From: Alphaproteobacteria bacterium
Lineage (GTDB): Bacteria > Pseudomonadota > Alphaproteobacteria > UBA9219 > RFNS01
DNA: 64,000 nucleotides
Direction: 5' to 3'
NCBI GenBank assembly: GCA_037200005.1
Contig: JBBCGY010000001.1
Span: 42,416 to 106,415, forward strand
Part shown: positions 8,504-27,187 of the stretch, one piece after another
How positions within the stretch are numbered: position 1 is the stretch's first letter
Layout: each line of letters starts with the position of its first letter
Notes under the pieces: model-generated
Database searches by the model: none
What the model was told of the DNA's origin: nothing
What the model saw: the letters and a program-made list of their open reading frames with translations, nothing else
Program-made: the position numbers and the translations under genes

Positions 8504-11500
8504 ATGGTCGCTGACATTCAATACACCCAGCCGGAACCGAATTATGACGGATTCCGCGAAGCGCATGTTGAAGAAGCAACTTTCGATTGGCTCTCTGGGC
8601 TTGGCTGGACACTCGCGCATGGGCCGGATTTGGCACCGGAAGGCAAAGCCCCGGAGCGGGCCAGTTATGGCGACGTGCTGTTGTTGGGGCGGTTGAGGAC
8701 AGCCTTGGCCGCGATCAACCCGCAACTCCCCGCCGATGCGATTGACGACGTGGTGCGTAAGATTATCGCAGTCGAAATGCCGTCTTTGGTCGAAGAAAAC
8801 CGGCGCTTGCATAAACTGATGGTCGATGGCGTGGCTGTGCAATACATGCAGGCCGACGGCACGATCAAAAACGACATCGCGTGGCTGATCGACTGGGAAA
8901 ACAAAAAGAACGATTGGCTGGCCGTCAATCAATTCACGGTCATCGAAGAACGCAACAATCGCCGCCCCGACGTGGTGATGTTTATCAACGGTTTGCCCCT
9001 TGCCGTTATTGAATTGAAGAACGCGGGAGACGAAAACGCGACAATCGAAGGCGCGTTCCGCCAGACGCAAGCTTACAAGCAATTGATCCCTTCTCTGTTT
9101 CGCACGAACGGCATACTGATTATTTCCGACGGACTGAAAGCCCGCATCGGCAGCCTGACCGCAGATTATGAGCGTTTCATGCCATGGCGCACGGTGGATG
9201 GGGCCGGTGTCGCGGCCAAAGGAACGCCCGAATTACACACAATGATTCACGGCGTTTTTGAGCAAGGGCGTTTTCTGGAGTTATTGCGCCGGTTCACCGT
9301 GTTTCAAAGCAACGGCAAAGATATTTTCAAAATCGTAGCAGGATATCACCAGTTCCACGCCGTAAAGCTCGCCGTTGCCAGCACCATCGACGCAACGGCC
9401 AGTGAAGGAAATCGCAAAGTCGGCGTCATCTGGCATACGCAAGGATCGGGCAAAAGCCTGTTGATGGCATTTTATGCGGGCAGCGTGATTGCCAATCCTG
9501 CGATGGCCAATCCGACTCTGGTTGTGCTGACCGACCGGAATGATCTGGACGACCAGCTTTTTTAACACTTTCAGCCTATCTCGTGATCTTATCCGCCAGA
9601 CGCCCGCGCAAGCGGGAGATCGCGATGAATTGCGGAAGCTTCTGGCGGTATCATCTGGCGGCGTTATCTTTACGACCATTCAAAAATTTCTGCCCGCTGA
9701 TAGTGAAAAAACTTTCCCGCTGTTGACTGACCGCAAGAATGTCATCGTCATCGCCGATGAAGCGCACCGCAGCCAATATGGCTTCAAGGCCAAGTTGGAT
9801 AAAAAGTCGGGCGAATTAGCTTATGGTTTTGCGAAACACCTGCGCGATGCGCTGCCGAATGCGTCCTTCATTGGCTTTACAGGAACGCCTATTGAGAAAG
9901 CAGATGTCAATACGCCCGCCGTATTCGGCGATTATATTGATGTCTATGATATTCAACGCGCGGTCGAAGACGGCGCGACGGTGCCAATCTATTACGAAAG
10001 CCGCCTAGCCAAACTCCAGCTTGACGAAGAGGAAGTCAAAAATCTTGATGCTGAGGTCGAAGAACTGACCGAAGACGAAGAATCCAGCGAGCGCGAGCGT
10101 AAGAAAAGCAAATGGTCGCGCGTTGAAGCCCTGTGGGAGCCGAAACACGCTTGGCTCAAGTAGCCGCCGATATTGTTCAGCATTTTGAGAACCGTATCAG
10201 CGCCTTAGACGGCAAAGGCATGACCGTATGCATGAGTCGCCGTATTTGCGTGGCGCTCTATAACGAGATTATTAAATTACGGCCCGCATGGCATTCAGAC
10301 GATGACGCGCAAGGCGCTATCAAGATTGTGATGACGGGCAATATCGCCAACGATCCGCCTGAATGGTTGAAACATACGGGCAGCAAGGCGCGCCGTGATT
10401 TCCTGGCAAAGCGGGCGCGCGACGCTAAAGACCCGCTAAAACTTGTTATCGTTCGTGATATGTGGCTTACGGGCTTTGATGCGCCCTGCATGCACACGAT
10501 GTATGTCGATAAGCCGATGCATGGTCATGGCTTGATGCAGGCCATTGCCCGTGTAAATCGCGTATTCCGCGACAAGCCAGGCGGCTTGATCGTTGATTAT
10601 ATCGGGATTGCCCATAATCTGAAACAAGCTCTCTCTATTTATTCCCCCGGCGACCGCGAAGAAGTCGGCATTGACGAGCAGCAAGCCGTCGCAGAGATGA
10701 TGCGCCGCTATGAAATCGTCCGGGATATGTTTTATGGATTCGATTATATGCGCGCGCTGCACGGCACACCGGCTGAACGCTTAGTGCTGATGGCCGAGGC
10801 TCTGGAGTGGATTCTCGATTTGCAGCAACGTGAAGCTGCAAAAGAACAGACCGAACAAGCCAGGAAAGAGGTGCGCCGCAAATTCTCAGACGCCGTTGTT
10901 GGCTTATCGCGCGCCTATGCGCTGGCCGCAACCTCGCCAGAAGCGGGGAAAATTCGTGATGAAGTCGGTTTCTTCCAGGCTATTCGTGCAGCCCTGGCAA
11001 AAAATGAGCCGGGCAAAGGTAGCACACAGGCGGAAATCGATGTGGCCGTCCAACAAATGGTCAGTCGTGCCGTGGTGTCAACGGAGATTGTCGATATTCT
11101 GGCGGCGGCAGGCATTAGAACCCCGGATATATCCATCCTCTCAGATGAATTTCTGGCAGAAATTCAAGGCATGAAGAAGCGTAACCTTGCATTGGAAGCC
11201 TTACAGAAACTCATCAATGGAGAAATAAAATCCCGCATCAAATCGAACGTGGTGCAATCTAAGAAATTCAGCGAACGACTGGAAGCCGCCGTCCGGCGCT
11301 ATCATAACAACGCTATAACTGCCGCGCAGCTTTTGGAGGAGCTGATTGCCATCGCAAAGGATATTAAAGCTGACCGCGAACGAGGAGAAGAACAAGGACT
11401 TAGCGAAGAGGAAATCGCTTTTTATGATGCTCTGGCTGAAAATGAAAGCGCATTGCAGTTGTTGGGCGATGAGAAATTACGAGTGATTGCTACTGAACTG

Positions 11501-11680
11501 GTTGTCTCCGTTCGCAATAATGTGTCTGTTGACTGGATGCACCGCGATAGCGCCCGCGCCAAGTTGCGCATCGAAGTCAAAAAGATTCTCAAGAAATATG
11601 GCTATCCGCCAGATTTACAGGATGCAGCGGTGCAACTGGTGTTGCAGCAGGCCGAAGTTTTGGCCCCACTCTGGGCATAA
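8504..11680 (+). pseudogene. hsdR: type I restriction endonuclease subunit HsdR, two frameshifts
   Basis: Three consecutive ORFs (8504..9565, 9540..10163, 10133..11680) each carry bona fide HsdR sequence (DEAH box DEAHRSQYG, helicase C, C-terminal domain). An extra T in the T6 run at 9558-9563 gives DQLF*. A missing G near 10131-10136 makes expected ...[13 protein letters not shown] read EALWEPKH. Confidence 0.85.
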
Positions 11681-13817: not shown

Positions 13818-13991
13818 ATGACCAATTCATTTAACGCTTATGTCATGCGCCAGGGCGAACCGGCCATTACCGCCATCATCGAAAATTGGGAAAGGCTTGT
13901 CGGCTTGCGGGCCGAGGCCGAAACGCCGCTTGAGCAGCGCTGGGCGGCGATGATGCATGGTTATGAGCCACAGGCAATGGCAGTCGCATGA
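13818..13991 (+). CDS. small hypothetical protein (57 aa), first gene of a coupled four-gene operon
   Basis: ATG at 13818 follows AAGGGGA. Its stop overlaps the next start (ATGA). It falls below the ORF-track length cutoff. Confidence 0.45.
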   Translation: MTNSFNAYVMRQGEPAITAIIENWERLVGLRAEAETPLEQRWAAMMHGYEPQAMAVA

Positions 13992-14278
13992 GCCGGAAAG
14001 CCGAAAAACCTTTCAGCCCGGTTGACGAGATGCAGCTTTCTCAGCCGATGGGCAATCGAACCGCCGAACATTTCCGCGATGCCCTGGATGATTTGGAGCA
14101 TGAGGCGACCGCGCAGGACGCAAAAATAAAGCAATTGCGCCAAGCTATTCTGCAACGCGCACAAGAACTCGACACTACCGTTTGCCAATCCTGGCTGGAT
14201 TCAGAAATCGAAAAAGCGGACCACCTCGCGTTGGAAGCGCGGCTGGAAAAACTCATCAAGTTCCTATCGGAAAAATGA
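13988..14278 (+). CDS. small hypothetical helical protein (96 aa)
   Basis: ATGA overlaps at both ends. The composition looks coiled-coil-like. Confidence 0.55.
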   Translation: MSRKAEKPFSPVDEMQLSQPMGNRTAEHFRDALDDLEHEATAQDAKIKQLRQAILQRAQELDTTVCQSWLDSEIEKADHLALEARLEKLIKFLSEK

Positions 14279-14493
14279 TGATGGCGAATTTTCATGAACG
14301 CCCCATGACATATAAAAAGCTCGTCGCTCGTTACGGCCATGACATGGCTTTCGATTTACTCGTCACTATCGAGAGCCTTGCGAAGATTAAGCACGACATC
14401 ATCGAGATCAACGAAGAAATTCGTCTGCAACGCGCGCTGGAAGTTTTGGACGAGGCGGAATTCGGACAGGCAGATAAAGGCGGGGTCAAATGA
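14275..14493 (+). CDS. small hypothetical protein (72 aa)
   Basis: The start ATG at 14275 overlaps the previous stop, and its stop overlaps the next start (ATGA). Confidence 0.5.
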   Translation: MMMANFHERPMTYKKLVARYGHDMAFDLLVTIESLAKIKHDIIEINEEIRLQRALEVLDEAEFGQADKGGVK

Positions 14494-14738
14494 TTTCCGG
14501 TAATAACATACCCAATAAAAAGCTTGCGCCGCGTGAAATCGAAGTCATGACCTTAACGGCGCGTGGCAAGACGACCACCGAAATTGCAATGCTTCTCTCG
14601 ATTGCCGAGGATACAGTTAAGACTCACATCAAACGATCCTGCCAGAAATTGAACGCGGCCAATAAAACACACGCCGTTGCTCTCGTTATGGCTCGCGGCA
14701 TAATAGAATGTTCCTGTTGTCACCCGAAAGGGGGATAG
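14490..14738 (+). CDS. LuxR/GerE-type HTH protein, DNA-binding domain only (82 aa)
   Basis: REIEVMTLTARGKTTTEIAMLLSIAEDTVKTHIKRSCQKL matches the GerE HTH pattern. Confidence 0.8.
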   Translation: MISGNNIPNKKLAPREIEVMTLTARGKTTTEIAMLLSIAEDTVKTHIKRSCQKLNAANKTHAVALVMARGIIECSCCHPKGG

Positions 14739-14820: not shown

Positions 14821-17800
14821 ATGGTGGCACCTGCGAAGAAATTTCACGAAGCGAACGGCGAACTCACCAATGAGGCAGGGGCAACGCGACCGCCGCTCTC
14901 GAGGAACAGCCTCTGGCGGACACTGCGCCCCGGGATCTCGGTGGGAGTAAGCCTCGCGGCAGTCGTCGCTTGCGAAAGCGGCGAACCCAACGCTTCAAAT
15001 GACAACATCGTTTCGATTTCCCAAGCGATAGGCTCTGCGACAATCTATAGCTTGCCTACCAATGTTTTGATGCCCAATGCCATCAATAATCAAAATCTCA
15101 TTGTGGGCCAGGGTCTGCCTTCGATCTATGATGCCAACACGGGAACATTTAGTAGCCTTGAAGTAAACCAGCCTTCGGGGGCGGTCACTTCCTATGCAAT
15201 TAGCAATGCCGGTCACGTTGTCGGCAATTCATTCAATGTTGGGCCGGTTTCCAATTCGGCGTTCATTTCACAGGGCGGACATTTGTCCGATCTATACGCC
15301 GGCAACAACAACGGGGTGACCAGCGTCGCTTACGGCGTCAACAATTATGGCCAAGTCGTCGGCACGATGCCGGTGACGGTCAACGATGCGAACAATAGTC
15401 CACATCCTTTCACGCATGCGTTCTCGTGGCAGGGCAGCGTTACAGACCTTACACCGAACTACTATGGAAATTCAGCCGCCTATGGCATCAACGATGCTGG
15501 GCAGATCGTGGGAACGATAGGAACTGCGGGGGTCAAGTGGCAGGGCGGATCGTCAAGCACGCTGCCGAGCGGCACCAGCACGCCCGCCATGATCAACAAT
15601 GTCGGTCAGATCGTCGGGACATATAGTTCAGGCGGTTCGTCGCACGCTTTCCTTGTGCAGAGCGGCACCCTGACCGATCTCGGAGCCATACAGGGAAGCA
15701 CACCTGTGAGGATCAACAACAAAGGACAAGTTACGGGCGGCTTCTACAACACGGGTGCCGGACAATATTACCCGAGCGTCTGGCAGAATGGCGTCGTGGT
15801 TACGATTCCCACTCTGTCGGGCATTCCCGCAGGCTGGTCTATCACGTCGATAAACGGCATCAATGACAGCGGAACCGTCGTAGGGCAAGGCACGCTTTCG
15901 GGTTCTTCACGGGGTTTTTACCTAACTTCGCCGCAGCTTCTGAACTACGCCATTGCCGGAAAGCCCTACGATCCGAAAGCGAATGGTGGTGAGGATTCGG
16001 CGTCAACCCCGACAGACGATCTATGTGGAACTCATGGCATGTGTGTGCCCAACGCGCAATTGCTGTCGGCCAGCTTGAATTTGAACGATACGCCGATTGG
16101 GTATCAGCCGCCCAAAGGGCCACCAGCCTATATCCGGCTTACATATAATCATCGTGACAGTGTCGCGCCCAGCAGCACTTCCTCGCATGTTGGGCCAAAC
16201 TGGACTCTGAATGTCATTTCTTACATTCAGGATGATCCGGCCAGCCCGGGCCAGAGCGTCACGCGCAACGTGGCGGGCGGCGGTATCGTCGACTACACTT
16301 TTGAGGCAGGGCAGTTCAATACCACCACGGGTGCATTCGGGCCGGAGAAGCAAACCGGGGCGATCTTGAAACGGACTCCCGCGACAGGGTTCAGCGCCAG
16401 TGCTTCCTATGAGCTTTCCTTTCCCGATGGGGCCAAGCAAATATTCTCCTACCCGGATGGAAGCTTCAATTATCCGCGCCGCGCATTCCTGACGGATATC
16501 GTTGATGCCTCAGGCCAGGGCCTGCATTTTGGCTACAATTATCTTCAAGGAACTTTCGGCGCGATCAATTGCACGCCGGGATGTCCGCAACTGCAATCAG
16601 TTTCTGATGCTAATTTCCGTGCAACAAACTTCGTCTACGGTGACGCATCTAATGTCTTGCGCGTGACGCGGATTAATGACCCGTTCGGGCGTCACGCCGA
16701 TTTAGCTTATGATGGCAGCGGACGGCTTTCGTCAATCACGGATGTGATCGGCATTCAATCGTCTTTCACCTATGACACCACCGACCCTACTTTCATCAAA
16801 AAGCTAACGACACCCTATGGCGATAGCAATTTCGTCTTTGGGCAAGATACGGCGACGGATCGTCGTTGGCTCACACTCTCCGATGCCGTGGGCAATACGG
16901 AAAAAGTGGAATACCGGGGCAGCAGCGCCAGCGGCATAGCGGCGTGCGACAAAAACACGAGCGATGCGTCGTGCAGTGTCTCGACCTCCGTGCCGACAGG
17001 CATGCCTAACGGCATCAATAACGCCGATCTCGACAAGCGCAACACCTTTGTCTGGAACAAATGGATGTATGCGAATGGCTATGGCAGCGATTACACGCAG
17101 GCGAATGTTACCCATTGGCTCAAGGACGGTGCGGGCAATCCCGTGGGGATTCCGGAAAGCGTCAAGCCGCTGTACGAATCCCGCATTTGGTATAATTATC
17201 CCGGCCAGAACGATCCTAGCACCCCAGGAACCCTGTCTGTGCCGAGGGCGACGGGCCGCGTGATCACCGATCCGCTTTACGGGCAAGCGCCGCAGAATCA
17301 GGTTTACCAAAGTCAATATAACAGCCTCGGCAAGCCCACCTTGACCGTCGATCCCTACAAGGTTTCAGGCAACAACAATGAAGGCCGAACTACACGCATG
17401 ACCTATGATGCCTCCGGCGTCGATCTTTTGACGGTGGAACAGAAAACCGGCAGCGGAACGCCGGGGACATGGGCGACGATTGCTTCCTACGTCTATACCG
17501 ATCCGACAGAACAGCCCACATCGATCCACAAACCGATCCGCTATACCGACGCGGCGGGGCAAACTTATAAATTCAAATACAATGGCGACGGCCAATTGAT
17601 CTATGCCGCCAATCCCTACAACGATACGACGTATAATGAATATCATCCGTCCGGCAAGCTCCTGCGGACGACCATGCCTGTGCCGAGCGTAAACTGGAAT
17701 ACCATCGATTATGGAACCGATATTAACGGCGCGCCGACGGGGGCGAGCAACAGCAGCGCCCTAAGGGACACCGCCATTACCTACGACTCCGCCGATCGTC

Positions 17801-20202
17801 CGTATGACGTGACCGACCGGATGGGTCTGGTGAAGCGTTTCGGCTACGACAATCTCGACCGGGTAACGCGGGTGGATTACGCCCCCGGCACGGCGGGCAC
17901 GACCTATGAGACGAACACCTATACCAACCTCGACCTGACATCGCACCGCGACCGGCTTGGCCGGGTTAGCACCGATGTTTACACGGCGAACCGGCAGCTG
18001 TGGCTGAGCTTCAATGCTTCGGGAACGCGGCGGGGCTTCACCTATTACCCGAACGGCGCGCTACAAGGCTACTACGACGAGAACGACCATCCTACAATCT
18101 ACGGCATCGACGGCCAGGGACGCGCCAACGCCGTCGTCTATCCCAATGGCAACCAGACGAATTACTACTACGATGATGGCGGGCGGATGCGCACCATTGT
18201 CGATCTCGACGGCTCGAACCAGCGCTGGCGGAACATTAAATATAACGTCGATAATAGCGTCCATATCCGCGACTATACCAACCCGGCAAATCCGTCCGAT
18301 CCCGTGGTTCTGGCGACGACAACCGCGACCTTCACCTACGATCCATGGTTCCCCGGACAAATGACTTCAATGGCCGATGCCAGCGGAACGACCAACTATA
18401 CATACAAAACCGTAGGCACCGTCGGCGCCTTACAACTCGCGACCGAAAATCCGCCGACGGTAAGCGGCGACGCGGATAAAATCACCTACACCTATGACCA
18501 GAAGGGACGGCTCGCCTCGCGCCAGATCGGTATCGGCACGGCGAGCGTGCTGCCGCAGGAAAGCTGGGTGCGCGACACCTATGGCCGCATTAACAGGCAC
18601 ATCATTCCCGACGGCAACCTGTTCTATTACGACTTCAACGGCGCGAGCAATCAGGTGACAATGCGCGCGTTTCGCAATCAGGCGCTGACGGAGATCGACC
18701 CGCTGAATACGCGCACGATGATGAGCTACGACACGGCGGCGAACGACTCGCGGCTGCTGACGATCAACAACCCGCCCTACGACAACAGCGCGCCCGGCGC
18801 GCGGGACTTCACCCTCAATTGGGGATCGTCGCCCGCCAATCCGTACGTTCCGGCGACGATCACCGACTCCGCTGGAGGCCCCGGCGGGGCGTGGGGACAG
18901 CGGGTGTGGACGATGGGCTATGACGCGCGCGACCGGCTGACCTCGGCGGTCGCCGCCGACCGCAGCTATTCGTTTACCCTGGACGCGCCGGGCAACGCGA
19001 CGAGCTTCACCAGCACGCACTATCCGAGCGGCGGGCTGTATAGCTTTAACTCGACCTACAACACGTCGAACCAGATGACGGTGGCGAACGGCAACGCGCT
19101 GATCTACGACCCCTACGGCAACCTCGTCACCCACACGAACTACCGCAGCTTCAAGTACGACGCCGAGAACCGCCTGATCGAGGTCGACTTCCCCGCCGCG
19201 CCCGCCGACAAGGTTGAGATGCAATATGACGGTCTTGGTCGCCGCACGCAGATCAAATCCACCATCGGCGGCGTCGTCACGACGCGGAACCTGCAATGGT
19301 GCGCCCAGACGACCTCGCCGCCGTTCCAGGGCGCGGCGGAAGAGATATGCGTCGAGCGCGACGCATCGGGCGGCATGCAGCGCATGGTCTATCCCGAGGG
19401 CGAATATCGCGCCAACGGCGGCCGGTACTTTTATGAACGCGACCAGACCGGCAACATCCGCGACGTGATGAAGATGGCGGCGGGATTGACGACCGCCGCG
19501 CGCGATAGCTCCTTCAACTACACGCCTTATGGCGGCGTCGACGGCAAAGACGGCACTGCCGAGCCGCTGCAGCAGTTCGCGGGACTGCTGTATGAGAAGA
19601 ACAGCAACCTGTTCCTCTCCCGCACCCGCGCCTATGCCCCATGGATCGGCAGATGGCTCCAGCGCGATCCGATTGGGCAGAATGGGGGGAGTAATGTTTA
19701 TGAGTATGCGGGGGCGAGTCCGATTAACAAGATTGATCCGAGCGGGTTGCAGGGGGTGCGACCTGGGTTAATAGAAACGATGCGACCTACAATAGGAGTG
19801 CCACCAGCAGCGGGGATCAACGAGGGGGCAGGAAATTACGCCGATTATCTTCAAGAAAATGGAGAAATGATGGGTGATCTAGCCACCCTTTATAGGGCCA
19901 CTAGCGCGGCGGTTGCCGGTGCGAGCAACCAATCAATGCGAGAGGATATTGAAAAAGCAAAAGTATGCACATCGTTTGGAAACAGCATGTCGGCGGATCA
20001 GCCGTTATGGTGCGGGCCTGGCGGATGCGCGGATAGCGTCAGGCAGCAGTGGCTGGATGCGACCGGCGGCTTAGTGTATCCACAAATCATCGAGTCTTTC
20101 AAAAAGAGGTTTGAACCGGCTCCCTCGCGGCTTGTGTCGACGCCGATGCGTGGCAATGACTTCGGTAATTCGGTTTTATTCCCTAATGTGGGCCCAGGTT
20201 AG
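14821..20202 (+). CDS. Rhs/YD-repeat polymorphic toxin with N-terminal HAF-type repeats and unrecognised C-terminal tip (1793 aa)
   Basis: Lipobox-like signal (SLAAVVAC). HAF-type repeats (HAFSW..., YGINDAGQIVGT, HAFLVQSGTLTDLG). Many YD repeats (YDGSGRL, YDASGVDL, YDNLDRV, YDQKGRL, YDAENRL, YDGLGRR). The core ends RWLQRDPIGQNGGSNVYEYAGASPINKIDPSGL and is followed by a 150-aa tip. Confidence 0.9.
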   Translation: MVAPAKKFHEANGELTNEAGATRPPLSRNSLWRTLRPGISVGVSLAAVVACESGEPNASNDNIVSISQAIGSATIYSLPTNVLMPNAINNQNLIVGQGLPSIYDANTGTFSSLEVNQPSGAVTSYAISNAGHVVGNSFNVGPVSNSAFISQGGHLSDLYAGNNNGVTSVAYGVNNYGQVVGTMPVTVNDANNSPHPFTHAFSWQGSVTDLTPNYYGNSAAYGINDAGQIVGTIGTAGVKWQGGSSSTLPSGTSTPAMINNVGQIVGTYSSGGSSHAFLVQSGTLTDLGAIQGSTPVRINNKGQVTGGFYNTGAGQYYPSVWQNGVVVTIPTLSGIPAGWSITSINGINDSGTVVGQGTLSGSSRGFYLTSPQLLNYAIAGKPYDPKANGGEDSASTPTDDLCGTHGMCVPNAQLLSASLNLNDTPIGYQPPKGPPAYIRLTYNHRDSVAPSSTSSHVGPNWTLNVISYIQDDPASPGQSVTRNVAGGGIVDYTFEAGQFNTTTGAFGPEKQTGAILKRTPATGFSASASYELSFPDGAKQIFSYPDGSFNYPRRAFLTDIVDASGQGLHFGYNYLQGTFGAINCTPGCPQLQSVSDANFRATNFVYGDASNVLRVTRINDPFGRHADLAYDGSGRLSSITDVIGIQSSFTYDTTDPTFIKKLTTPYGDSNFVFGQDTATDRRWLTLSDAVGNTEKVEYRGSSASGIAACDKNTSDASCSVSTSVPTGMPNGINNADLDKRNTFVWNKWMYANGYGSDYTQANVTHWLKDGAGNPVGIPESVKPLYESRIWYNYPGQNDPSTPGTLSVPRATGRVITDPLYGQAPQNQVYQSQYNSLGKPTLTVDPYKVSGNNNEGRTTRMTYDASGVDLLTVEQKTGSGTPGTWATIASYVYTDPTEQPTSIHKPIRYTDAAGQTYKFKYNGDGQLIYAANPYNDTTYNEYHPSGKLLRTTMPVPSVNWNTIDYGTDINGAPTGASNSSALRDTAITYDSADRPYDVTDRMGLVKRFGYDNLDRVTRVDYAPGTAGTTYETNTYTNLDLTSHRDRLGRVSTDVYTANRQLWLSFNASGTRRGFTYYPNGALQGYYDENDHPTIYGIDGQGRANAVVYPNGNQTNYYYDDGGRMRTIVDLDGSNQRWRNIKYNVDNSVHIRDYTNPANPSDPVVLATTTATFTYDPWFPGQMTSMADASGTTNYTYKTVGTVGALQLATENPPTVSGDADKITYTYDQKGRLASRQIGIGTASVLPQESWVRDTYGRINRHIIPDGNLFYYDFNGASNQVTMRAFRNQALTEIDPLNTRTMMSYDTAANDSRLLTINNPPYDNSAPGARDFTLNWGSSPANPYVPATITDSAGGPGGAWGQRVWTMGYDARDRLTSAVAADRSYSFTLDAPGNATSFTSTHYPSGGLYSFNSTYNTSNQMTVANGNALIYDPYGNLVTHTNYRSFKYDAENRLIEVDFPAAPADKVEMQYDGLGRRTQIKSTIGGVVTTRNLQWCAQTTSPPFQGAAEEICVERDASGGMQRMVYPEGEYRANGGRYFYERDQTGNIRDVMKMAAGLTTAARDSSFNYTPYGGVDGKDGTAEPLQQFAGLLYEKNSNLFLSRTRAYAPWIGRWLQRDPIGQNGGSNVYEYAGASPINKIDPSGLQGVRPGLIETMRPTIGVPPAAGINEGAGNYADYLQENGEMMGDLATLYRATSAAVAGASNQSMREDIEKAKVCTSFGNSMSADQPLWCGPGGCADSVRQQWLDATGGLVYPQIIESFKKRFEPAPSRLVSTPMRGNDFGNSVLFPNVGPG
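18991..19746 (+). repeat. direct repeat copy 1 (Rhs core 3' end)
   Basis: Near-identical to 21502..22257 at a constant offset of 2511 bp. There are 3 aa differences over about 250 codons. Confidence 0.9.
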
Positions 20203-20206
20203 TCCT

Positions 20207-21478
20207 ATGAAAAAGTTTACTCTATTGCTTGTCGCGCTTTGTAGTCTGACAATGTTACCGGCTCATGCCGCTGACCAAGACTCCAAACCACCCGTCATTG
20301 ATATTCCTGCCACGCGAAAAGAGGCGGAGTCTGGAGATGCTCGGGCTCAATATAATCTGGGCATAGCTTATCTCAACGGTTACGGGGTGAAGAAAAATAA
20401 AGATGAAGCTATTGAATGGATTTACAAAGCAGGGAAGAACAATGATGCCCTCGCAATATATTTCTTGGGCAGCGCATATCATGATGGCGACCTTTTGCCA
20501 CAAGACTACGCCAAGGCTATGAAGTGGTATCACAGGTCCGATGAATTATACGGCAGTCCCCTTGCGCAGAATATGCTTGGCGTGATGCACGAAAACGGTC
20601 AGGGGGCTCCACAGAATTATGAAGAAGCGGCTAGGTGGTATCGCAAAGCTGCCGAGAATATTTACGCACCGGCTCAATCCCATCTTGGATTCCTATACTA
20701 CGCTGGACGCGGCGTTCCTAAGGACGATCAAAAGGCTCTATATTGGCTTAAGAAAGCAGCCATACAAAACGATGCGCCAGCAAAGCTTATGCTAGGCATT
20801 ATGCACTATAAAGGCGAAGGAGTGGAAAAGAATTACGTTAAAGCTGTCAGCTATTTTCGCGAAGCCGCAGACGTCGGAATATCGATAGCTGAACGATATT
20901 TGGGAAATATGTATTACCACGGCGAAGGCGTTTCCAAGGATGAAGCCCAGGCTGTGTCTTGGTGGCGCAAAGCCGCCGAACAAGGGGATAGGGAGTCGGA
21001 AAAGATCATAGGTGGTATGTACTATTATGGCACAGGAGTGTCGAAGGATTTTTCCCAAGCCGTTTTATGGTGGCAAAAAGCTGCGGAAAAGGGTGATGTC
21101 GATGCTCAATGCAACTTGGCGAAAGCTTACTATCATGGAGAAGGTATAGGAAAAGATGAAACTCAAGCTGTGTTATGGTGGCGGAGGGCCGCGGCACAAG
21201 GACATGGAGAATCCCTCCTTTATTTAGGACAAGCGTATTTTAGTAGCATAGGCGTATCGCAAGATGATGTGCAGGCTTATATATGGCTAAGCTTGGCGGC
21301 TACAAGAAATCAGTCGTCAGCGGTTGCAACACTCACGGAACTCGAAAAGTCCATGACGCCGGAACAAATCGCTGAAGCCAGAAAACGCGTGGCAGAATGG
21401 AAACCCAAGCCTGAGCCAAAGCCTGCCCCAATAGGGCCAATACCCGAAATTCTAAAAGAAGTCCGTGAAGATTTATGA
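20207..21478 (+). CDS. secreted Sel1-like repeat protein (423 aa), candidate cognate immunity/partner of the Rhs tip
   Basis: Signal peptide MKKFTLLLVALCSLTMLPAHA. About 10 Sel1 repeats (AQYNLGIAYLNGYGVKKNKDEAIEWIYKA...). The start lies 5 nt after the Rhs stop. Confidence 0.8.
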   Translation: MKKFTLLLVALCSLTMLPAHAADQDSKPPVIDIPATRKEAESGDARAQYNLGIAYLNGYGVKKNKDEAIEWIYKAGKNNDALAIYFLGSAYHDGDLLPQDYAKAMKWYHRSDELYGSPLAQNMLGVMHENGQGAPQNYEEAARWYRKAAENIYAPAQSHLGFLYYAGRGVPKDDQKALYWLKKAAIQNDAPAKLMLGIMHYKGEGVEKNYVKAVSYFREAADVGISIAERYLGNMYYHGEGVSKDEAQAVSWWRKAAEQGDRESEKIIGGMYYYGTGVSKDFSQAVLWWQKAAEKGDVDAQCNLAKAYYHGEGIGKDETQAVLWWRRAAAQGHGESLLYLGQAYFSSIGVSQDDVQAYIWLSLAATRNQSSAVATLTELEKSMTPEQIAEARKRVAEWKPKPEPKPAPIGPIPEILKEVREDL

Positions 21479-22668
21479 TCTCGACTTCGAGGATGCATTT
21501 GGGCAATGCGACGAGCTTCACCAGCACGCACTATCCGAGCGGCGGGCTGTATAGCTTTAACTCGACCTACAACACGTCGAACCAGATGACGGTGGCGAAC
21601 GGCAACGCGCTGATCTACGACCCCTACGGCAACCTCGTCACCCACACGAACTACCGCAGCTTCAAGTACGACGCCGAGAATCGCCTGATCGAGGTCGACT
21701 TCCCCGCCGCGCCCGCCGACAAGGTTGAGATGCAATATGACGGTCTTGGCCGCCGCACGCAGATCAAATCCACCATCGGGGGCGTCGTCACGACGCGGAA
21801 TCTGCAATGGTGCGCCCAGACGACCTCGCCGCCGTTCCAGGGCGCGGCGGAAGAGATATGCGTCGAGCGCGACGCATCGGGCGGCATGCAGCGCATGGTC
21901 TATCCCGAGGGCGAATATCGCGCCAACGGCGACCGGTACTTTTATGAACGCGACCAGACCGGCAACATCCGCGACGTGATGAAGATGGCGGCGGGATTGA
22001 CGACCGCCGCGCGCGACAGCTCCTTCAACTACACGCCTTATGGCGGCGTCGACGGCAGAGACGGCACCGCCGAGCCGCTGCAGCAGTTCGCGGGACTGCT
22101 GTATGAGAAGAACAGCAACCTGTTCCTCTCCCGCACCCGCGCCTACGCCCCATGGATCGGCAGATGGCTCCAGCGCGATCCGATTGGGCAGAATGGCGGC
22201 GCGAATGTTTATGAATATGCGGGGGCGAGTCCGATTAACAAGATTGATCCGAGCGGGCTTCAAAGCATCCAGAATGCGGATGACTGGATAAAACAGAGAA
22301 ATGCCCCTGCTCAGCCGTCAAATAGTATTTGGAGTGAGATCCTAGATAAAATCAGAGAACCTGTGTCTAGAAATGAAGCCATTAGTGAGATTACAAATTT
22401 CCGTCAATCTGGAGAGGCCCAAACTGAAGCACAGATAGCTAGAATGCTCATGGGTTTACCCGTCGAACCTGATTTTTCTGTTGCTATAGGAGGGGCTGAA
22501 GGTGAGCAAGATCTTGGCAGAGCGATTATGTCGGTAGCGCGCGAGATTTTGCGCCGCCCTGCGGAGCAGTCGTGCCCAATAGTTCAGAGAAAAGTCTTCG
22601 GTCAATCCTTGCCACCAAGTGATTTTGGTGACAAGAATCTCCCACTGCCATCTATATTAACCCTTTAA
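21475..22668 (+). CDS. orphan Rhs C-terminal cassette (Rhs core fragment plus alternative toxin tip, 397 aa)
   Basis: The ATG overlaps the Sel1 stop (ATGA). Residues from GNATSF to DPSGL duplicate the main Rhs. They are followed by a different, AT-rich 135-aa tip. Confidence 0.8.
   Translation: MISTSRMHLGNATSFTSTHYPSGGLYSFNSTYNTSNQMTVANGNALIYDPYGNLVTHTNYRSFKYDAENRLIEVDFPAAPADKVEMQYDGLGRRTQIKSTIGGVVTTRNLQWCAQTTSPPFQGAAEEICVERDASGGMQRMVYPEGEYRANGDRYFYERDQTGNIRDVMKMAAGLTTAARDSSFNYTPYGGVDGRDGTAEPLQQFAGLLYEKNSNLFLSRTRAYAPWIGRWLQRDPIGQNGGANVYEYAGASPINKIDPSGLQSIQNADDWIKQRNAPAQPSNSIWSEILDKIREPVSRNEAISEITNFRQSGEAQTEAQIARMLMGLPVEPDFSVAIGGAEGEQDLGRAIMSVAREILRRPAEQSCPIVQRKVFGQSLPPSDFGDKNLPLPSILTL
21502..22257 (+). 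repeat. direct repeat copy 2 (orphan Rhs core fragment)
   Basis: See copy 1. Homology starts at GGCAA(C/T)GCGACGAGCTTCACC and decays right after the codons for DPSG. Confidence 0.9.
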
Positions 22669-22700
22669 AGAATATGAGTGGAATTGAGGGAGTTAATGCA

Positions 22701-23489
22701 ATGAAGAAGATAATTATTATTACGGCATTTGCTTTGATGGTCGCATCAGTTCAAGCTTATGCTGCCGTCCAGGATGAAAAAGCCGACAGTTTGTTAGGGC
22801 ATCGCCTGTCCGAACAATTACGGAAAACAGAAGCGCAGACAACTCTTGCTGCGGGAAAAGAGCTATTTAAAACAGGCGAAGGTCTTTCTAAGGATAATGT
22901 CGATGCAGTAAAGCTATTTCGCGTAGCTGCCAATCTTGGCTCGATGGAGGCACAAACAATTCTCGGCGCTGCATACCTTAGTGGCGATGGAGTGCAAAAA
23001 GATATTCCTGAAGCTTTAAAATGGATACAAAAATCTGCCGCCCAAGGAGACGCCAAGGCTCAACATTTATTGGGTGTATTGTATCATGAAGGATCAGACG
23101 TAAAAAAAGACAATGTGAAATCGTTAAAATGGATACGGAAAGCAGCGGAGCAAGGTTTGCCATCGGCACAATTTAGTCTTGGCACTATGCTTTCTAAAGG
23201 ATATGGAACACACCGAGATGAAACTTCAGCGATGGAATGGTTTCATAAATCCGCAAACCAAGGCTATGCTAAGGCCCAAATTATGCTCGGAATTGCATAT
23301 CACCTAGGTAAAGATATATCTAAAGACGATATTCTAGCTGATCAATGGCTGATATTGGCCGGGGAAAAAGAGGCACGTGATGATTTGGAAAAATCCATGA
23401 CCCCCGAACAAATCGCCGAAGCTATAAACCGCGCGGCGGAATGGAAGCCGAAACCACCAACCAAGCCCGATCCTGAATCCAAACCGTAG
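22701..23489 (+). CDS. secreted Sel1-like repeat protein (262 aa), candidate partner of the orphan tip
   Basis: SD GAGGGA. Signal peptide MKKIIIITAFALMVASVQAYA. Sel1 repeats are present. The C-terminal LEKSMTPEQIAEA...AEWKPKP tail is shared with 20207..21478. Confidence 0.8.
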   Translation: MKKIIIITAFALMVASVQAYAAVQDEKADSLLGHRLSEQLRKTEAQTTLAAGKELFKTGEGLSKDNVDAVKLFRVAANLGSMEAQTILGAAYLSGDGVQKDIPEALKWIQKSAAQGDAKAQHLLGVLYHEGSDVKKDNVKSLKWIRKAAEQGLPSAQFSLGTMLSKGYGTHRDETSAMEWFHKSANQGYAKAQIMLGIAYHLGKDISKDDILADQWLILAGEKEARDDLEKSMTPEQIAEAINRAAEWKPKPPTKPDPESKP

Positions 23490-23513: not shown

Positions 23514-23882
23514 ATGAAATTTATCCGATTTTATGTCGTTGCATCTCTTGTTCTTGGAGTTTTGCAGATTGCTGACGGCATCGTTCTTGTTTCGTATGGC
23601 ACAATAGCAATTAGTAATATTTTCTCTTTGCTCGAAGCTATATGGGTTGTTGTCTCGATGATAGCGCTTTGGTTTTTCATAAAAAGCAAATTTCCAATAT
23701 TCATTCCGACGACATATATTTTATACAATGTTGCTGGCTGGGGATACGGGGCCTATTTGTTTTCACAATTGCAAAATTCTGACCAAATAATCGACGTTCC
23801 TCTTTGGTTTAAAATTGCGGGTATTTGTTTTGGCATCTATTTTGCCTGCGTAAATTTCATATTGTATAAACGAAAACTGTGA
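23514..23882 (+). CDS. small integral membrane protein (122 aa, about 4 TM)
   Basis: Four hydrophobic segments in a very AT-rich gene. The start lies 24 nt after the preceding stop. Confidence 0.6.
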   Translation: MKFIRFYVVASLVLGVLQIADGIVLVSYGTIAISNIFSLLEAIWVVVSMIALWFFIKSKFPIFIPTTYILYNVAGWGYGAYLFSQLQNSDQIIDVPLWFKIAGICFGIYFACVNFILYKRKL

Positions 23883-25584: not shown

Positions 25585-25776
25585 ATGAGCCAGGAAGCAT
25601 ATCGCGTGAAAGAATTCTGCAACCGCTACGCCATTTCAAAAGCCAGCTTCTACCGGGAAACAGCGGCGAAGCGGCTGCATATCCTAAAACGTGGCCGTAC
25701 AACGCTCGTTGCCCGCACCGAAGCCGAACGCTGGTTTGAAAGCCTTGGCCAAGGCCAGCCGCAGCAATCAGCCTGA
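25585..25776 (+). CDS. excisionase/AlpA-like small HTH DNA-binding protein (63 aa)
   Basis: SD AGGGAGGA. The pattern YRVKEFCNRYAISKASFYR...RWF resembles MerR-superfamily excisionases. It lies immediately upstream of the integrase. Confidence 0.65.
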   Translation: MSQEAYRVKEFCNRYAISKASFYRETAAKRLHILKRGRTTLVARTEAERWFESLGQGQPQQSA

Positions 25777-25843
25777 TCGCATTCAATATCCCGAATATTT
25801 CCAAAGCCATTTTTCGTCAATCTTATTCTCATGGAGGCATGTC

Positions 25844-27031
25844 ATGCGCCATACGGGACATATTCGCCAGCGTTCAGAAGGGAGTTTCGAGCTTCGCTAT
25901 AGCATCGGCACCGATCCGGTCACGGGAAAATGGAAAGTCAAAACCGTCACCGTTAAGGGAACGCGCAAAGCTGCCGAGAAAGAATTGCGCCGCATACTCG
26001 ATGCAATCGATGACAATGATTATGTCGAACCCAATAAAATCACTACCCGTGATTTTTTGACACAATGGCTTGAAACAATGCGTTCCCAGATAACCCCCAA
26101 ATCCTATGAAAGCTACGCTGAAATAGTCGATAACTTCCTTATCCCAACTCTTGGCGGTCATATTCTGGCGAAACTTGCTCCGGCTGTTATCCAAAAAGCC
26201 TACAATGGATGGGAAGCTGGTGGCCGCAGGGATAAAAAGGCGGGCGGGCTGGCGGCGCGTTCCCGTCTCTATATCCACCGCATCCTTAAATCGGCACTCA
26301 AACATGCCGTGCAAATACAGCTAATCGCCCGCAATCCCGCCGACGCGGTTAAAGCGCCGCGCGTCAAGAAAGCCGCCATAACTACATTGACCGTGGATCA
26401 ATCGGCGGCGCTGCTCGATGCCCTGTCCGGCAAGCCGCTTTATTGGCCTGTGTTGCTTGCCCTAACAACGGGCATGCGCCGGGGTGAAATTCTGGCGCTT
26501 CGCTGGAAGAATATCGACTTTGAAAAGAAAACTGTTCGCGTCGTCGAAAGTCTAGAGCAAACCAACACAGGCATTCGCTTCAAGGCTCCGAAAACGGAAC
26601 GGAGTCGTGCCGTCATGTTGCCGGATTATGCCGTTGAAGAACTGCGGAGACTGAAAAAAGAACAGGAGAAAAAATTGTCGGAATCAGGAATCGGCCAAAC
26701 CACTGAAACGCTGGTTTGCGGTCGCTATGACGGCGAACCGCTATGGCCTACCTCACTTACGCATGAATTCGTGAAGGCCATGAAGAAACTGCCGAAACTG
26801 CCGCGCGCCAGATTCCATGATTTGCGCCATTCCCATGCCACGCAACTCCTGACAGCAGGAATCCATCCCAAAATCGCGCAAGAACGGCTGGGACATACCA
26901 CGATTACGACAACCCTAGACCTCTATTCCCATGCGACGGACACCATGCAAGACGAGGCTGCATCAAAGCTCGACAATGCCTTCCGTTCTGCTATAAAGGC
27001 CCGTTCCGACCAAGCGCCACGACTAGGATAA
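25844..27031 (+). CDS. int: tyrosine recombinase / phage-type integrase (395 aa)
   Basis: ATG follows GGAGG. Catalytic signature: RRGEILALRW, HDLRHSHAT, LGHTTITTTLDLYSH. Confidence 0.9.
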   Translation: MRHTGHIRQRSEGSFELRYSIGTDPVTGKWKVKTVTVKGTRKAAEKELRRILDAIDDNDYVEPNKITTRDFLTQWLETMRSQITPKSYESYAEIVDNFLIPTLGGHILAKLAPAVIQKAYNGWEAGGRRDKKAGGLAARSRLYIHRILKSALKHAVQIQLIARNPADAVKAPRVKKAAITTLTVDQSAALLDALSGKPLYWPVLLALTTGMRRGEILALRWKNIDFEKKTVRVVESLEQTNTGIRFKAPKTERSRAVMLPDYAVEELRRLKKEQEKKLSESGIGQTTETLVCGRYDGEPLWPTSLTHEFVKAMKKLPKLPRARFHDLRHSHATQLLTAGIHPKIAQERLGHTTITTTLDLYSHATDTMQDEAASKLDNAFRSAIKARSDQAPRLG

Positions 27032-27111: not shown

Positions 27112-27187
27112 GACCTTGTAGCTCAGCCGGTAGAGCATCTGACTTTTAATCAGGGGGTCGCGGGTTCGAACCCCGCCGAGGTCACCA
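27112..27187 (+). tRNA. tRNA-Lys (anticodon UUU), CCA encoded
   Basis: Manual cloverleaf. Acceptor GACCTTG/CGAGGTC, D arm GCTC-AGCCGGTA-GAGC, anticodon loop CTTTTAA, T arm GCGGG-TTCGAAC-CCCGC, discriminator A, CCA. Confidence 0.9.

What the first reader, a model, noticed from the sequence alone, without database searches (positions are those of the whole stretch)
18991..22668. 756-bp near-identical direct repeat sets up an orphan Rhs tip/immunity cassette poised for toxin switching
Positions 18991-19746 and 21502-22257 are near-identical at a constant offset of 2511 bp, with only 3 amino-acid changes across about 250 codons. Similarity starts abruptly (GGCAAYGCGACGAGC) and ends at the DPSG codons. 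After that the orphan continues into a different AT-rich 135-aa tip (QSIQNADDWIKQRN...). Homologous recombination between the repeats would delete tip 1 plus its Sel1 gene and fuse tip 2 onto the full-length Rhs. The orphan also has its own ATG overlapping the upstream Sel1 stop (ATGA). It may therefore be translated as a 397-aa fragment without recombination.
Basis: seen in the sequence. Interest (0 to 1): 0.5.

Follow-up and report, generated by a model that had tools for sequence, protein, structure and literature searches.

The report
Spare Rhs toxin tip with immunity gene
A large bacterial Rhs toxin gene is followed by a spare, truncated copy of its last 756 bases carrying a different toxin tip and its own protective gene, which is the well-known "orphan Rhs module" layout and so is real but ordinary.

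Summary
Positions 18991-19746 and 21502-22257 match at a constant offset of 2511 bp, with 16 mismatches in 756 (97.9%), no indels and 3 amino-acid changes. Copy 1 is the 3' end of the core of a 1793-aa Rhs gene (14821-20202). Copy 2 makes up most of a 397-aa downstream fragment (21475-22668). Both copies end at the PxxxxDPxGL motif and continue into unrelated, lower-GC tips. Each tip is followed by a signal-peptide Sel1-repeat gene, the likely immunity gene. Both copies are in frame and 2511 = 3 x 837, so recombination between them would give an in-frame 1778-aa chimera and delete tip 1 plus Sel1-1. This is the orphan Rhs-CT/immunity layout shown experimentally in Salmonella (522 bp, 95% identical). 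The differences between copies are mostly synonymous (dN/dS 0.11), which fits acquisition of a tip module from a diverged relative. Local peculiarities are a Sec/lipoprotein-type Rhs with HAF repeats and no T6SS genes nearby, paralogous periplasmic Sel1 immunity candidates, tips with no detected homologues, and an orphan ATG overlapping the upstream stop codon. Switching and orphan translation are inferred, not shown. I rate it a new member of a known kind, of low to moderate interest.

The parts
14821..20202 (+). Full-length Rhs gene (1793 aa). It has a predicted signal peptide with a lipobox (..LAAVVA|C), HAF repeats, an RHS/YD-repeat shell, an Rhs_assc_core domain ending in PINKIDPSGL (aa 1634-1643), and tip 1.
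   Evidence: ORF. Pfam RHS_repeat 3e-24. NCBIfam YD_repeat 1.3e-22, Rhs_assc_core 2.5e-18 at aa 1567-1643, HAF_rpt 4.2e-15. A GGGGAG Shine-Dalgarno sequence lies 8 nt before the ATG. The signal peptide and lipobox were read by eye from the sequence. The gene is 100% identical to public protein P0001 from an Alphaproteobacteria MAG.
18991..19746 (+). Repeat copy 1: the last 252 codons of the Rhs core, up to DPSG.
   Evidence: GC3 is 0.83.
19747..20202 (+). Tip 1: 151-aa variable C-terminal domain (LQGVRPGLIETM...), the predicted toxin.
   Evidence: Diverges from the orphan right after DPSG. GC3 is 0.53. No Pfam, NCBIfam, PDB or plasmid match. The AF2 model has pLDDT 35.
20207..21478 (+). Sel1-1: 423-aa Sel1-repeat protein with a signal peptide (MKKFTLLLVALCSLTMLPAHA|A), the candidate immunity protein for tip 1.
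   Evidence: Pfam Sel1 9.8e-86 over 9 repeats. The start lies 4 nt after the Rhs stop. GC3 is 0.44.
18991..21501 (+). The 2511-bp unit (repeat, tip 1, Sel1-1 and a 27-nt junction) that recombination between the two copies would remove.
   Evidence: Offset is 2511 = 3 x 837, and both copies are in frame 0. The longest perfect tracts are 173, 130 and 84 bp.
21475..22668 (+). Orphan Rhs fragment ORF (397 aa): a 9-aa unique leader (MISTSRMHL), 252 core codons, and tip 2.
   Evidence: ORF. Rhs_assc_core 2.9e-20 at aa 186-262. The ATG overlaps the Sel1-1 TGA. The same ORF is called in the public record as a 397-aa protein (P0042).
21502..22257 (+). Repeat copy 2.
22258..22668 (+). Tip 2: 135-aa variable C-terminal domain (LQSIQNADDWIKQRN...), the predicted alternative toxin.
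   Evidence: No similarity to tip 1. GC3 is 0.39. An exhaustive phmmer search of 1.84 billion representatives found only itself plus two repeat-protein hits that I judge spurious. No PDB or plasmid match. The AF2 model has pLDDT 48.
22701..23489 (+). Sel1-2: Sel1-repeat protein with a signal peptide (MKKIIIITAFALMVASVQAYA|A), the candidate immunity protein for tip 2. The ORF could also start at 22674.
   Evidence: Pfam Sel1 1.7e-40. A GAGGGAG Shine-Dalgarno sequence lies before the ATG at 22701. It is 35-42% identical to Sel1-1 and shares its C-terminal tail. GC3 is 0.36.
23514..23882 (+). 122-aa hydrophobic, multi-pass membrane protein. It may belong to the tip 2 module, or be a left-over immunity gene.
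   Evidence: ORF. It starts 24 nt after Sel1-2. Its GC3 of 0.36 matches tip 2 and Sel1-2. There is no family match above threshold. Assigning it to the module is inference.

Best explanation
This is a Rhs polymorphic-toxin locus with one orphan toxin-tip/immunity module.

**Main gene.** It encodes a Sec-exported, probably lipid-anchored Rhs protein with HAF repeats. Its shell ends at the self-cleavage motif PxxxxDPxGL and carries toxin tip 1. Sel1-1 is the periplasmic immunity protein for tip 1.

**Orphan module.** Downstream lie the last 252 core codons, an unrelated tip 2, and its own periplasmic Sel1 immunity gene.

**Likely origin.** The arrangement most likely arose when a [core 3' end - tip 1 - Sel1-1] cassette from a relative about 7% diverged at synonymous sites recombined into the core. 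This could have been a single crossover of a 2.5-kb circle, or homologous recombination on the left with an illegitimate join on the right. Either route pushes the former tip 2 module downstream ('C-terminal displacement').

**Likely function now.**
- The whole array is probably one operon, so Sel1-2 is made and protects against relatives armed with tip 2.
- RecA-type recombination between the two 98%-identical copies can produce an in-frame 1778-aa Rhs carrying tip 2. The cost is loss of tip 1 and Sel1-1.

**Shown versus inferred.** Shown: the repeat, the frames, the domain content, the composition shifts, and the synonymous bias. Inferred: toxicity of the tips, the immunity role and periplasmic location of the Sel1 proteins, co-transcription, and actual recombination.
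For: - Repeat geometry and frame.
- Rhs identity of both ORFs, and the position of the Rhs_assc_core domain directly before the point of divergence.
- Tips are unrelated to each other.
- GC3 steps at the motif (0.83 in the repeat; 0.53/0.44 for tip 1/Sel1-1; 0.39/0.36 for tip 2/Sel1-2). This suggests two modules of separate origin.
- About 12 of the 16 differences are synonymous (dN/dS 0.11, binomial p 1.5e-5). The copies therefore diverged while being read in this frame under purifying selection.
- Intergenic gaps are only 4 to 32 nt. No convincing + strand terminator occurs before 25525.
- Perfect-identity tracts of 173 and 130 bp are available for homologous recombination.
- Experimental precedent. 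In Salmonella, rhs-main and rhs-orphan share 522 bp at 95% identity and recombine to arm the orphan toxin (PMC3967940). Orphan modules have been described as reservoirs of toxin and immunity diversity (PMC3150448).
- A Sel1-repeat protein has been shown to act as an immunity protein (Sel1E against VgrG4, PMC7108748).
- RHS toxins with Sec signal peptides are a recognised class (PMC3482391).
Against: - No second strain or recombinant form could be found. The locus has no close relative in the species-representative genomes or in JGI metagenomes.
- None of the ten related signal-peptide Rhs loci (32-46% identical where matched) that I examined carries a core fragment in the DNA held downstream, which reached 10 kb where the contig allowed. 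Orphans are therefore not a regular feature of this clade.
- Neither tip has a recognisable toxin domain or a usable structure model.
- The two candidate immunity proteins are paralogues although the tips are unrelated. That is unusual for cognate pairs.
- A simple deletion removes Sel1-1 and would make recombinants sensitive to their siblings (the argument made in PMC3967940).
Confidence: 0.78

Rival explanations
1. The orphan is an evolutionary scar plus an immunity reservoir. The repeat is only a by-product of acquiring the tip 1 cassette. The orphan is kept because Sel1-2 protects against neighbours armed with tip 2. Recombination-based switching is rare and not what selection maintains. 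This overlaps with the best explanation and differs only in what is being selected.
For: The deletion would remove Sel1-1 (geometry), so plain recombinants are disadvantaged, as argued in PMC3967940 and PMC3150448. Sel1-2 has a good Shine-Dalgarno sequence of its own. No related locus carries an orphan.
Against: The tip 2 reading frame is intact over 135 AT-rich codons. The core fragment is 98% identical with no indels and few amino-acid changes. A pure scar would be expected to decay. In CDI systems the same question, why toxin fragments are retained, led to the reservoir and switching model (PMC3150448).
Confidence: 0.35
2. The orphan is translated on its own as a 397-aa cytoplasmic protein. 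Ribosomes terminating at the Sel1-1 TGA would re-initiate at the overlapping ATG (ATGA). The product would act inside the producer, for example as an addiction or TA-like module as proposed for internally expressed Rhs-CTs in Salmonella.
For: An in-frame ATG overlaps the upstream stop. The orphan retains the whole Rhs_assc_core domain that carries the cleavage motif. The synonymous bias is compatible with selection on a translated orphan. Internal expression of main and orphan Rhs-CTs was shown in Salmonella (PMC7043789).
Against: No clear Shine-Dalgarno sequence precedes the ATG; only GAAG-type purine runs occur there. The region has no special RNA structure (z = -0.26). The candidate antidote Sel1-2 carries a signal peptide, so it would not meet a cytoplasmic toxin. 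The synonymous bias is equally well explained by divergence before the cassette arrived. That gene callers predict the ORF (P0042) is not evidence of translation.
Confidence: 0.2
3. Assembly artefact. Two strain variants of one locus (tip 1 and tip 2) in the metagenome were strung together in tandem by the assembler.
For: The source is a MAG. hsdR in the same window is broken by frameshifts, one at a T6 run, so the assembly may contain errors.
Against: The junction holds 27 nt of unique sequence that continues in frame from the Sel1-1 stop into the core fragment. Assemblers do not invent such sequence. The flanks downstream of the two modules differ, unlike the two arms of a bubble. The copies differ at 16 positions, so they are distinguishable. 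The contig is 1.83 Mb, which suggests (inference) long reads that would span 756 bp. The layout is a common natural one.
Confidence: 0.05

Closest known systems
Salmonella Typhimurium rhs-main / rhs-CT-orphan locus (STM0291/STM0292) (PMC3967940, PMC7043789)
   Same: A full-length rhs gene with its immunity gene, followed in the same orientation by a core fragment with a different tip and its own immunity gene. The direct repeat ends at the PxxxxDPxGL motif (522 bp at 95% there; 756 bp at 97.9% here). Recombination fuses the orphan tip to the delivery part and deletes the main immunity gene.
   Different: The Salmonella Rhs is a T6SS (SPI-6) effector, and its immunity proteins act in the cytoplasm. 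Here the Rhs has a signal peptide/lipobox and HAF repeats. No T6SS gene is in the surrounding island. The immunity candidates are exported Sel1-repeat proteins. The orphan has an ATG that overlaps the upstream stop. Nothing has been tested experimentally here.
Orphan cdiA-CT/cdiI arrays of contact-dependent inhibition systems and Rhs loci of Dickeya/E. coli (PMC3150448)
   Same: Arrays of displaced toxin tips, each with an immunity gene. Homology to the main gene stops at a short conserved motif (VENN or DPxGL). The arrays are co-transcribed with the main genes. They have been proposed as a reservoir of immunity and of exchangeable toxins.
   Different: A different delivery protein family for CDI. 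Most of those orphans lack start codons. Arrays there can hold up to eleven modules, whereas there is one here.
Sec/T2SS-type RHS polymorphic toxins in the Zhang et al. 2012 classification (PMC3482391)
   Same: A signal peptide followed by RHS repeats and a variable C-terminal toxin, with no T6SS, T5SS or T7SS targeting domain.
   Different: That class is defined by computation only. I did not find the HAF-repeat N-terminal region or Sel1 immunity candidates described together with Rhs (a search for 'HAF repeat' plus 'Rhs' gave 0 papers).
Sel1-repeat immunity protein Sel1E of Klebsiella pneumoniae VgrG4 (PMC7108748)
   Same: A Sel1-repeat protein encoded directly downstream of a toxin, within a set of paralogous sel1 genes, of which one specifically neutralises the toxin.
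   Different: The toxin there is a T6SS VgrG C-terminal domain, not an Rhs tip. That paper reports no lipoprotein signal sequence in Sel1E and inconclusive localisation predictions, whereas both Sel1 proteins here have signal peptides.

Membership tests
Rhs / YD-repeat polymorphic toxin | Multiple RHS/YD repeats forming the shell | tested here: met
   PF05593 3e-24. TIGR01643 1.3e-22.
Rhs / YD-repeat polymorphic toxin | Rhs-associated core domain ending in PxxxxDPxGL, directly before the variable tip | tested here: met
   TIGR03696 at aa 1567-1643 of the main gene (2.5e-18) and aa 186-262 of the orphan (2.9e-20). The sequence is P-INKI-DPSGL in both. Divergence begins at that point.
Rhs / YD-repeat polymorphic toxin | The C-terminal tip is a toxin neutralised by the product of the next gene | not testable with these tools
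   The tips have no family, PDB or plasmid matches and no usable models. Only position and composition support the assignment.
Orphan Rhs-CT/immunity module | A truncated rhs fragment lacking the N-terminal delivery part, downstream of the main immunity gene on the same strand | tested here: met
   ORF 21475-22668 aligns only to aa 1391-1647 of the main Rhs and starts at the Sel1-1 stop.
Orphan Rhs-CT/immunity module | Near-identity with the main gene's core up to DPxGL, then an unrelated tip followed by its own immunity gene | tested here: met
   97.9% over 756 nt. Tips unrelated. Sel1-2 follows the tip.
Orphan Rhs-CT/immunity module | No translation initiation signals of its own (usual but not universal) | tested here: not met
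   An in-frame ATG at 21475 overlaps the upstream TGA. The Shine-Dalgarno sequence is weak or absent. Whether the ATG is used is untested.
Orphan Rhs-CT/immunity module | Recombination with the main gene produces a functional chimera | not testable with these tools
   Geometry allows an in-frame 1778-aa chimera. No variant locus was found in the public collections.
T6SS-delivered Rhs effector | A PAAR or pre-PAAR N-terminus, or neighbouring vgrG, Eag chaperone or T6SS genes | tested here: not met
   The Rhs has no such domains. The flanking ORFs I scanned, which were not all ORFs of the window, gave type I R-M, Fic, HTH, LuxR and integrase hits, or no hit, and no T6SS family. Only 64 kb of the genome was visible, so a T6SS elsewhere is not excluded.
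Sec-dependent RHS toxins (signal-peptide Rhs) | An N-terminal signal peptide ahead of the RHS repeats | tested here: inconclusive
   A hydrophobic stretch plus a VVAC lipobox was read by eye. Relatives P0002 and P0004, and the loci L005, L007, L008 and L011, also start with signal-peptide-like sequences. No signal-peptide predictor was available. The public annotation starts the gene 154 codons later.
Sel1-repeat immunity proteins | Sel1 repeats in a gene directly downstream of the toxin, with specific neutralisation | tested here: inconclusive
   Repeats and position are met. Neutralisation cannot be tested here. The precedent is PMC7108748.

The most novel reading that the evidence does not exclude
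The locus may represent a T6SS-independent delivery route. In this reading, a lipid-anchored surface Rhs with HAF repeats releases toxins that act in the periplasm of neighbouring cells, which is why the immunity proteins are exported Sel1 proteins. The orphan would not be silent. It would be made by stop/start coupling (ATGA) as a cytoplasmic pro-toxin fragment that is harmless inside the producer because its target is periplasmic. That would keep tip 2 under selection without any recombination.
Probability: 0.1. Interest if true: 0.55.

Novelty: new member of a known kind. Interest (0 to 1): 0.25.

Why it matters
The value is mainly in annotation and ecology. The locus shows that the main-plus-orphan logic of Rhs loci, known mostly from T6SS-linked Rhs in enterobacteria, also occurs in a signal-peptide, HAF-repeat Rhs. 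That gene sits on a tRNA-Lys-adjacent island of an uncultured alphaproteobacterium. The locus also supplies two candidate toxin domains with no detectable relatives, and paired periplasmic Sel1 immunity candidates that could be tested. It does not change how Rhs systems are understood.

Tried and rejected
1. **Word-index protein searches with each tip alone** found nothing. The tip 1 search missed P0001, which contains tip 1 exactly. I therefore treat these negatives as unreliable.
2. **Exhaustive phmmer search with tip 2** returned the orphan itself and two long Gram-positive-type surface repeat proteins (E 1.5e-19 and 6e-4). Each hit comes from 4-8 weak matches of about 60 residues added together. 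I regard them as spurious.
3. **Single-sequence AlphaFold2 of both tips** gave pLDDT 35 and 48. I did not run fold searches because the models are meaningless.
4. **PDB sequence searches and plasmid tblastn with both tips** gave no matches.
5. **Searches for strain variants or the recombinant form** failed. The genome and metagenome scans with the orphan gave no close relative. P0001 could not be located on a contig.
6. **Comparative check for orphans in related loci** covered L001-L003 and L005-L011. None has a downstream core fragment.
7. **Search for a tRNA-Lys direct repeat to delimit the island** found none in the window.
8. **RNA fold around the orphan start** was no better than shuffled sequence.
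9. **The long antisense ORFs over both repeat copies** (18430-19296 and 21310-22263, minus strand) were dismissed (my inference) as open frames typical of GC-rich coding DNA. They are duplicated simply because the repeat is.

Full report
**Observation.** A fixed-offset comparison confirms that 18991-19746 and 21502-22257 are collinear at an offset of 2511 bp. There are 16 mismatches in 756 nt (97.9%) and no indels. Matching drops to background immediately outside both ends. The repeat finder found the same pair independently. tblastn of the large ORF against the window finds only these two copies. The 16 differences cause three amino-acid changes: G>D, K>R and S>A. The left edge is abrupt. The right edge is the GGG codon of DPSG. 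The next two residues (L, Q) are the same in both proteins but are encoded differently.

**Anatomy.** The ORF at 14821-20202 (1793 aa) has RHS/YD repeats, HAF repeats near the N-terminus, and an Rhs_assc_core domain at aa 1567-1643 that ends in P-INKI-DPSGL.
- It has a good ribosome-binding site (GGGGAG).
- Its N-terminus reads as a signal peptide with a lipobox..SLAAVVA|C (read by eye, since no predictor was available).
- After DPSGL comes a 151-aa tip with no family, PDB or plasmid match.
- Four nucleotides after the stop begins a 423-aa Sel1-repeat protein with a signal peptide (20207-21478).
- Its TGA overlaps the ATG of a 397-aa ORF (21475-22668). That ORF consists of 9 unique residues, the 252 repeated core codons including the full Rhs_assc_core domain, and a 135-aa tip unrelated to tip 1.
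- A second Sel1-repeat protein with a signal peptide follows. Its likely start is 22701, behind GAGGGAG.
- Next comes a 122-aa hydrophobic protein (23514-23882).

**Composition.** GC3 is 0.83 in both repeat copies. It is 0.53 and 0.44 in tip 1 and Sel1-1. It is 0.39, 0.36 and 0.36 in tip 2, Sel1-2 and the membrane protein. The core and the two tip modules therefore have different compositional histories. This is the classical Rhs picture of a GC-rich core with AT-rich tips.

**Setting.** The locus lies in the left 27 kb of the window, which has GC 0.52 against 0.61 to the right. This stretch carries:
- type I restriction-modification genes (hsdM, hsdS, and a fragmented hsdR);
- a SoFic-type Fic protein;
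- an HTH regulator;
- a small LuxR/GerE regulator directly upstream of the Rhs gene;
- a tyrosine integrase next to tRNA-Lys.

No PAAR, VgrG or other T6SS family was hit among the ORFs I scanned. The main Rhs is 100% identical to a public protein from an 'Alphaproteobacteria bacterium' MAG on a 1.83-Mb contig. The orphan is present in the public collections as a 397-aa protein.

**Mechanics of recombination.** Both copies are in frame 0 of their ORFs, and 2511 = 3 x 837. A crossover anywhere in the repeat gives an in-frame 1778-aa Rhs carrying tip 2. It removes a 2511-bp unit containing tip 1 and Sel1-1. Perfect-identity tracts of 173, 130 and 84 bp are available. [quoted passage not shown] That study also stresses that the deletion removes the main immunity gene. 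There, the chimeras arose after a duplication of the locus. The same cost applies here and tempers the description 'poised for switching'.

**Origin.** About 11.7 of the 16 differences are synonymous and 4.3 are non-synonymous (dS 0.070, dN 0.0075, dN/dS 0.11). The binomial p against neutral expectation is 1.5e-5. The two copies therefore diverged while being translated in this frame under purifying selection. The simplest reading is that the [core end - tip 1 - Sel1-1] cassette came from a related lineage's functional Rhs gene and recombined into the resident core. That would displace the tip 2 module downstream. The abrupt left edge and the 27-nt unique joint at 21475-21501 would mark the end of the incoming or retained fragment. 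Continued selection on a translated orphan would give the same bias. Without an outgroup the two readings cannot be separated.

**Expression.** No convincing + strand intrinsic terminator occurs between the Rhs start and 25525, and promoter-like hits are at chance level. The genes are 4-32 nt apart or overlap. Co-transcription is therefore likely but not shown. The orphan ATG lacks a clear Shine-Dalgarno sequence and the region has no special RNA structure. Translation, if it occurs, would depend on termination-reinitiation at the ATGA. Internal expression of Rhs tips is documented in Salmonella (PMC7043789). Here, though, the candidate antidote is exported, which argues against a cytoplasmic toxin-antitoxin role.

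**Immunity candidates.** A Sel1-repeat protein has been shown to be an immunity protein in Klebsiella (Sel1E, PMC7108748). Here each Sel1 gene is the only gene between a tip and the next module, so position supports the assignment. Their signal peptides imply toxins that act in the periplasm or cell envelope (inference). One oddity is that Sel1-1 and Sel1-2 are paralogues. They are 35-42% identical and share the tail LEKSMTPEQIAEA..AEWKPKP, although the tips show no similarity to each other.

**Relatives.** The nearest full-length homologues are 34-36% identical over 81-90% of the protein (P0002-P0004). Seven species-representative genome loci are 32-46% identical over the matched parts. They come from MAGs of Accumulibacter, Rhodospirillales, Bryobacteraceae, Reyranella, Burkholderiales, Polyangiaceae and Terriglobales.
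- The full-length ones I could inspect start with signal-peptide-like sequences. This places the family in the Sec-type RHS toxins of Zhang et al. (PMC3482391).
- One of them, seen on two contigs (L001/L002), also sits beside an integrase. L003 is followed by Imm26 and DUF4259 genes.
- None has a downstream core fragment.
- No close relative of this locus, and hence no alternative-tip strain or recombinant, was found.

**Limits.** Neither tip has an identifiable fold or family. Tip 2 has no credible homologue among 1.84 billion representative proteins. Tip 1 could not be searched exhaustively, and the word-index search is shown to be unreliable for it. Read-level support for the assembly cannot be checked. 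The unique in-frame junction, the differing downstream flanks and the contig length argue against an artefact. The fragmented hsdR, with one break at a T6 run, shows that the assembly or the genome carries frameshifts.

**Verdict.** It is a standard orphan Rhs tip/immunity module next to its main gene. The local peculiarities are the Sec/lipoprotein-type HAF-Rhs, the exported paralogous Sel1 immunity candidates, the tips with no detected relatives, and the start codon overlapping the upstream stop. I class it as a new member of a known kind, with an interest score of about 0.25.

Noticed in passing
window 8504-11680 (+): The type I restriction subunit hsdR is split into three overlapping ORFs (8504-9565, 9540-10163, 10133-11680) that match consecutive parts of the HsdR model. 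The first break is at a T6 run (9556-9562). This is either a pseudogene or phase-variable gene, or indel errors in the MAG assembly.
   Followed up: partly
window 14821-15285 (+): The public annotation (P0001, 1639 aa) starts the Rhs gene 154 codons downstream of the ATG at 14821. That cuts off the predicted signal peptide/lipobox and the first HAF repeats. The upstream ATG has a GGGGAG Shine-Dalgarno sequence 8 nt before it.
   Followed up: partly
window 1-27200: The left 27 kb looks like a genomic island. Its GC is 0.52 against 0.61 to the right. It carries SprT-like, type I R-M, SoFic, HTH, LuxR, Rhs-locus and tyrosine-integrase (25691-27031) genes next to tRNA-Lys (27112-27187). The integrase lies on the 5' side of the tRNA, and no direct repeat of the tRNA was found in the window, so the far island boundary is not defined.
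   Followed up: partly
window 20207-21478 and 22701-23489: The two candidate immunity proteins are paralogues, 35-42% identical, with a shared C-terminal tail LEKSMTPEQIAEA..AEWKPKP. The toxin tips they follow show no similarity to each other. That is unusual for cognate toxin/immunity pairs and remains unexplained.
   Followed up: partly
window 23514-23882 (+): A 122-aa very hydrophobic ORF starts 24 nt after Sel1-2. Its GC3 (0.36) is as low as that of tip 2 and Sel1-2. It has no family match above threshold. It might be a second immunity factor or the remnant of a lost third module.
   Followed up: no
window 13988-14738 (+): A chain of small overlapping ORFs lies directly upstream of the Rhs gene and ends in an 82-aa LuxR/GerE-type HTH protein (14490-14738, PF00196 1.3e-17). 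It may be a dedicated regulator of the locus.
   Followed up: no
tool behaviour: The word-index homology search with tip 1 returned nothing, although the database holds P0001, which contains tip 1 exactly. Negative results from that tool for short queries should not be trusted.
   Followed up: yes
P0043, P0044: The tip 2 phmmer hits to 829- and 914-aa surface proteins, which are made of about 100-aa tandem repeats, owe their low E-values to 4-8 weak repeat matches added together (around IPDFSITI against EPDFSVAI). I judge these to be artefacts of repeat summation.
   Followed up: partly
L003 7342-9415; L007 and L011: Related signal-peptide Rhs loci show other forms of diversification. L003 has a 325-aa ORF followed by Imm26 and DUF4259 genes downstream. 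L007 and L011 each carry a second very long ORF of about 1700-1900 aa in the same locus. Of these, only the L011 one showed any similarity to an Rhs core, and that was weak.
   Followed up: no
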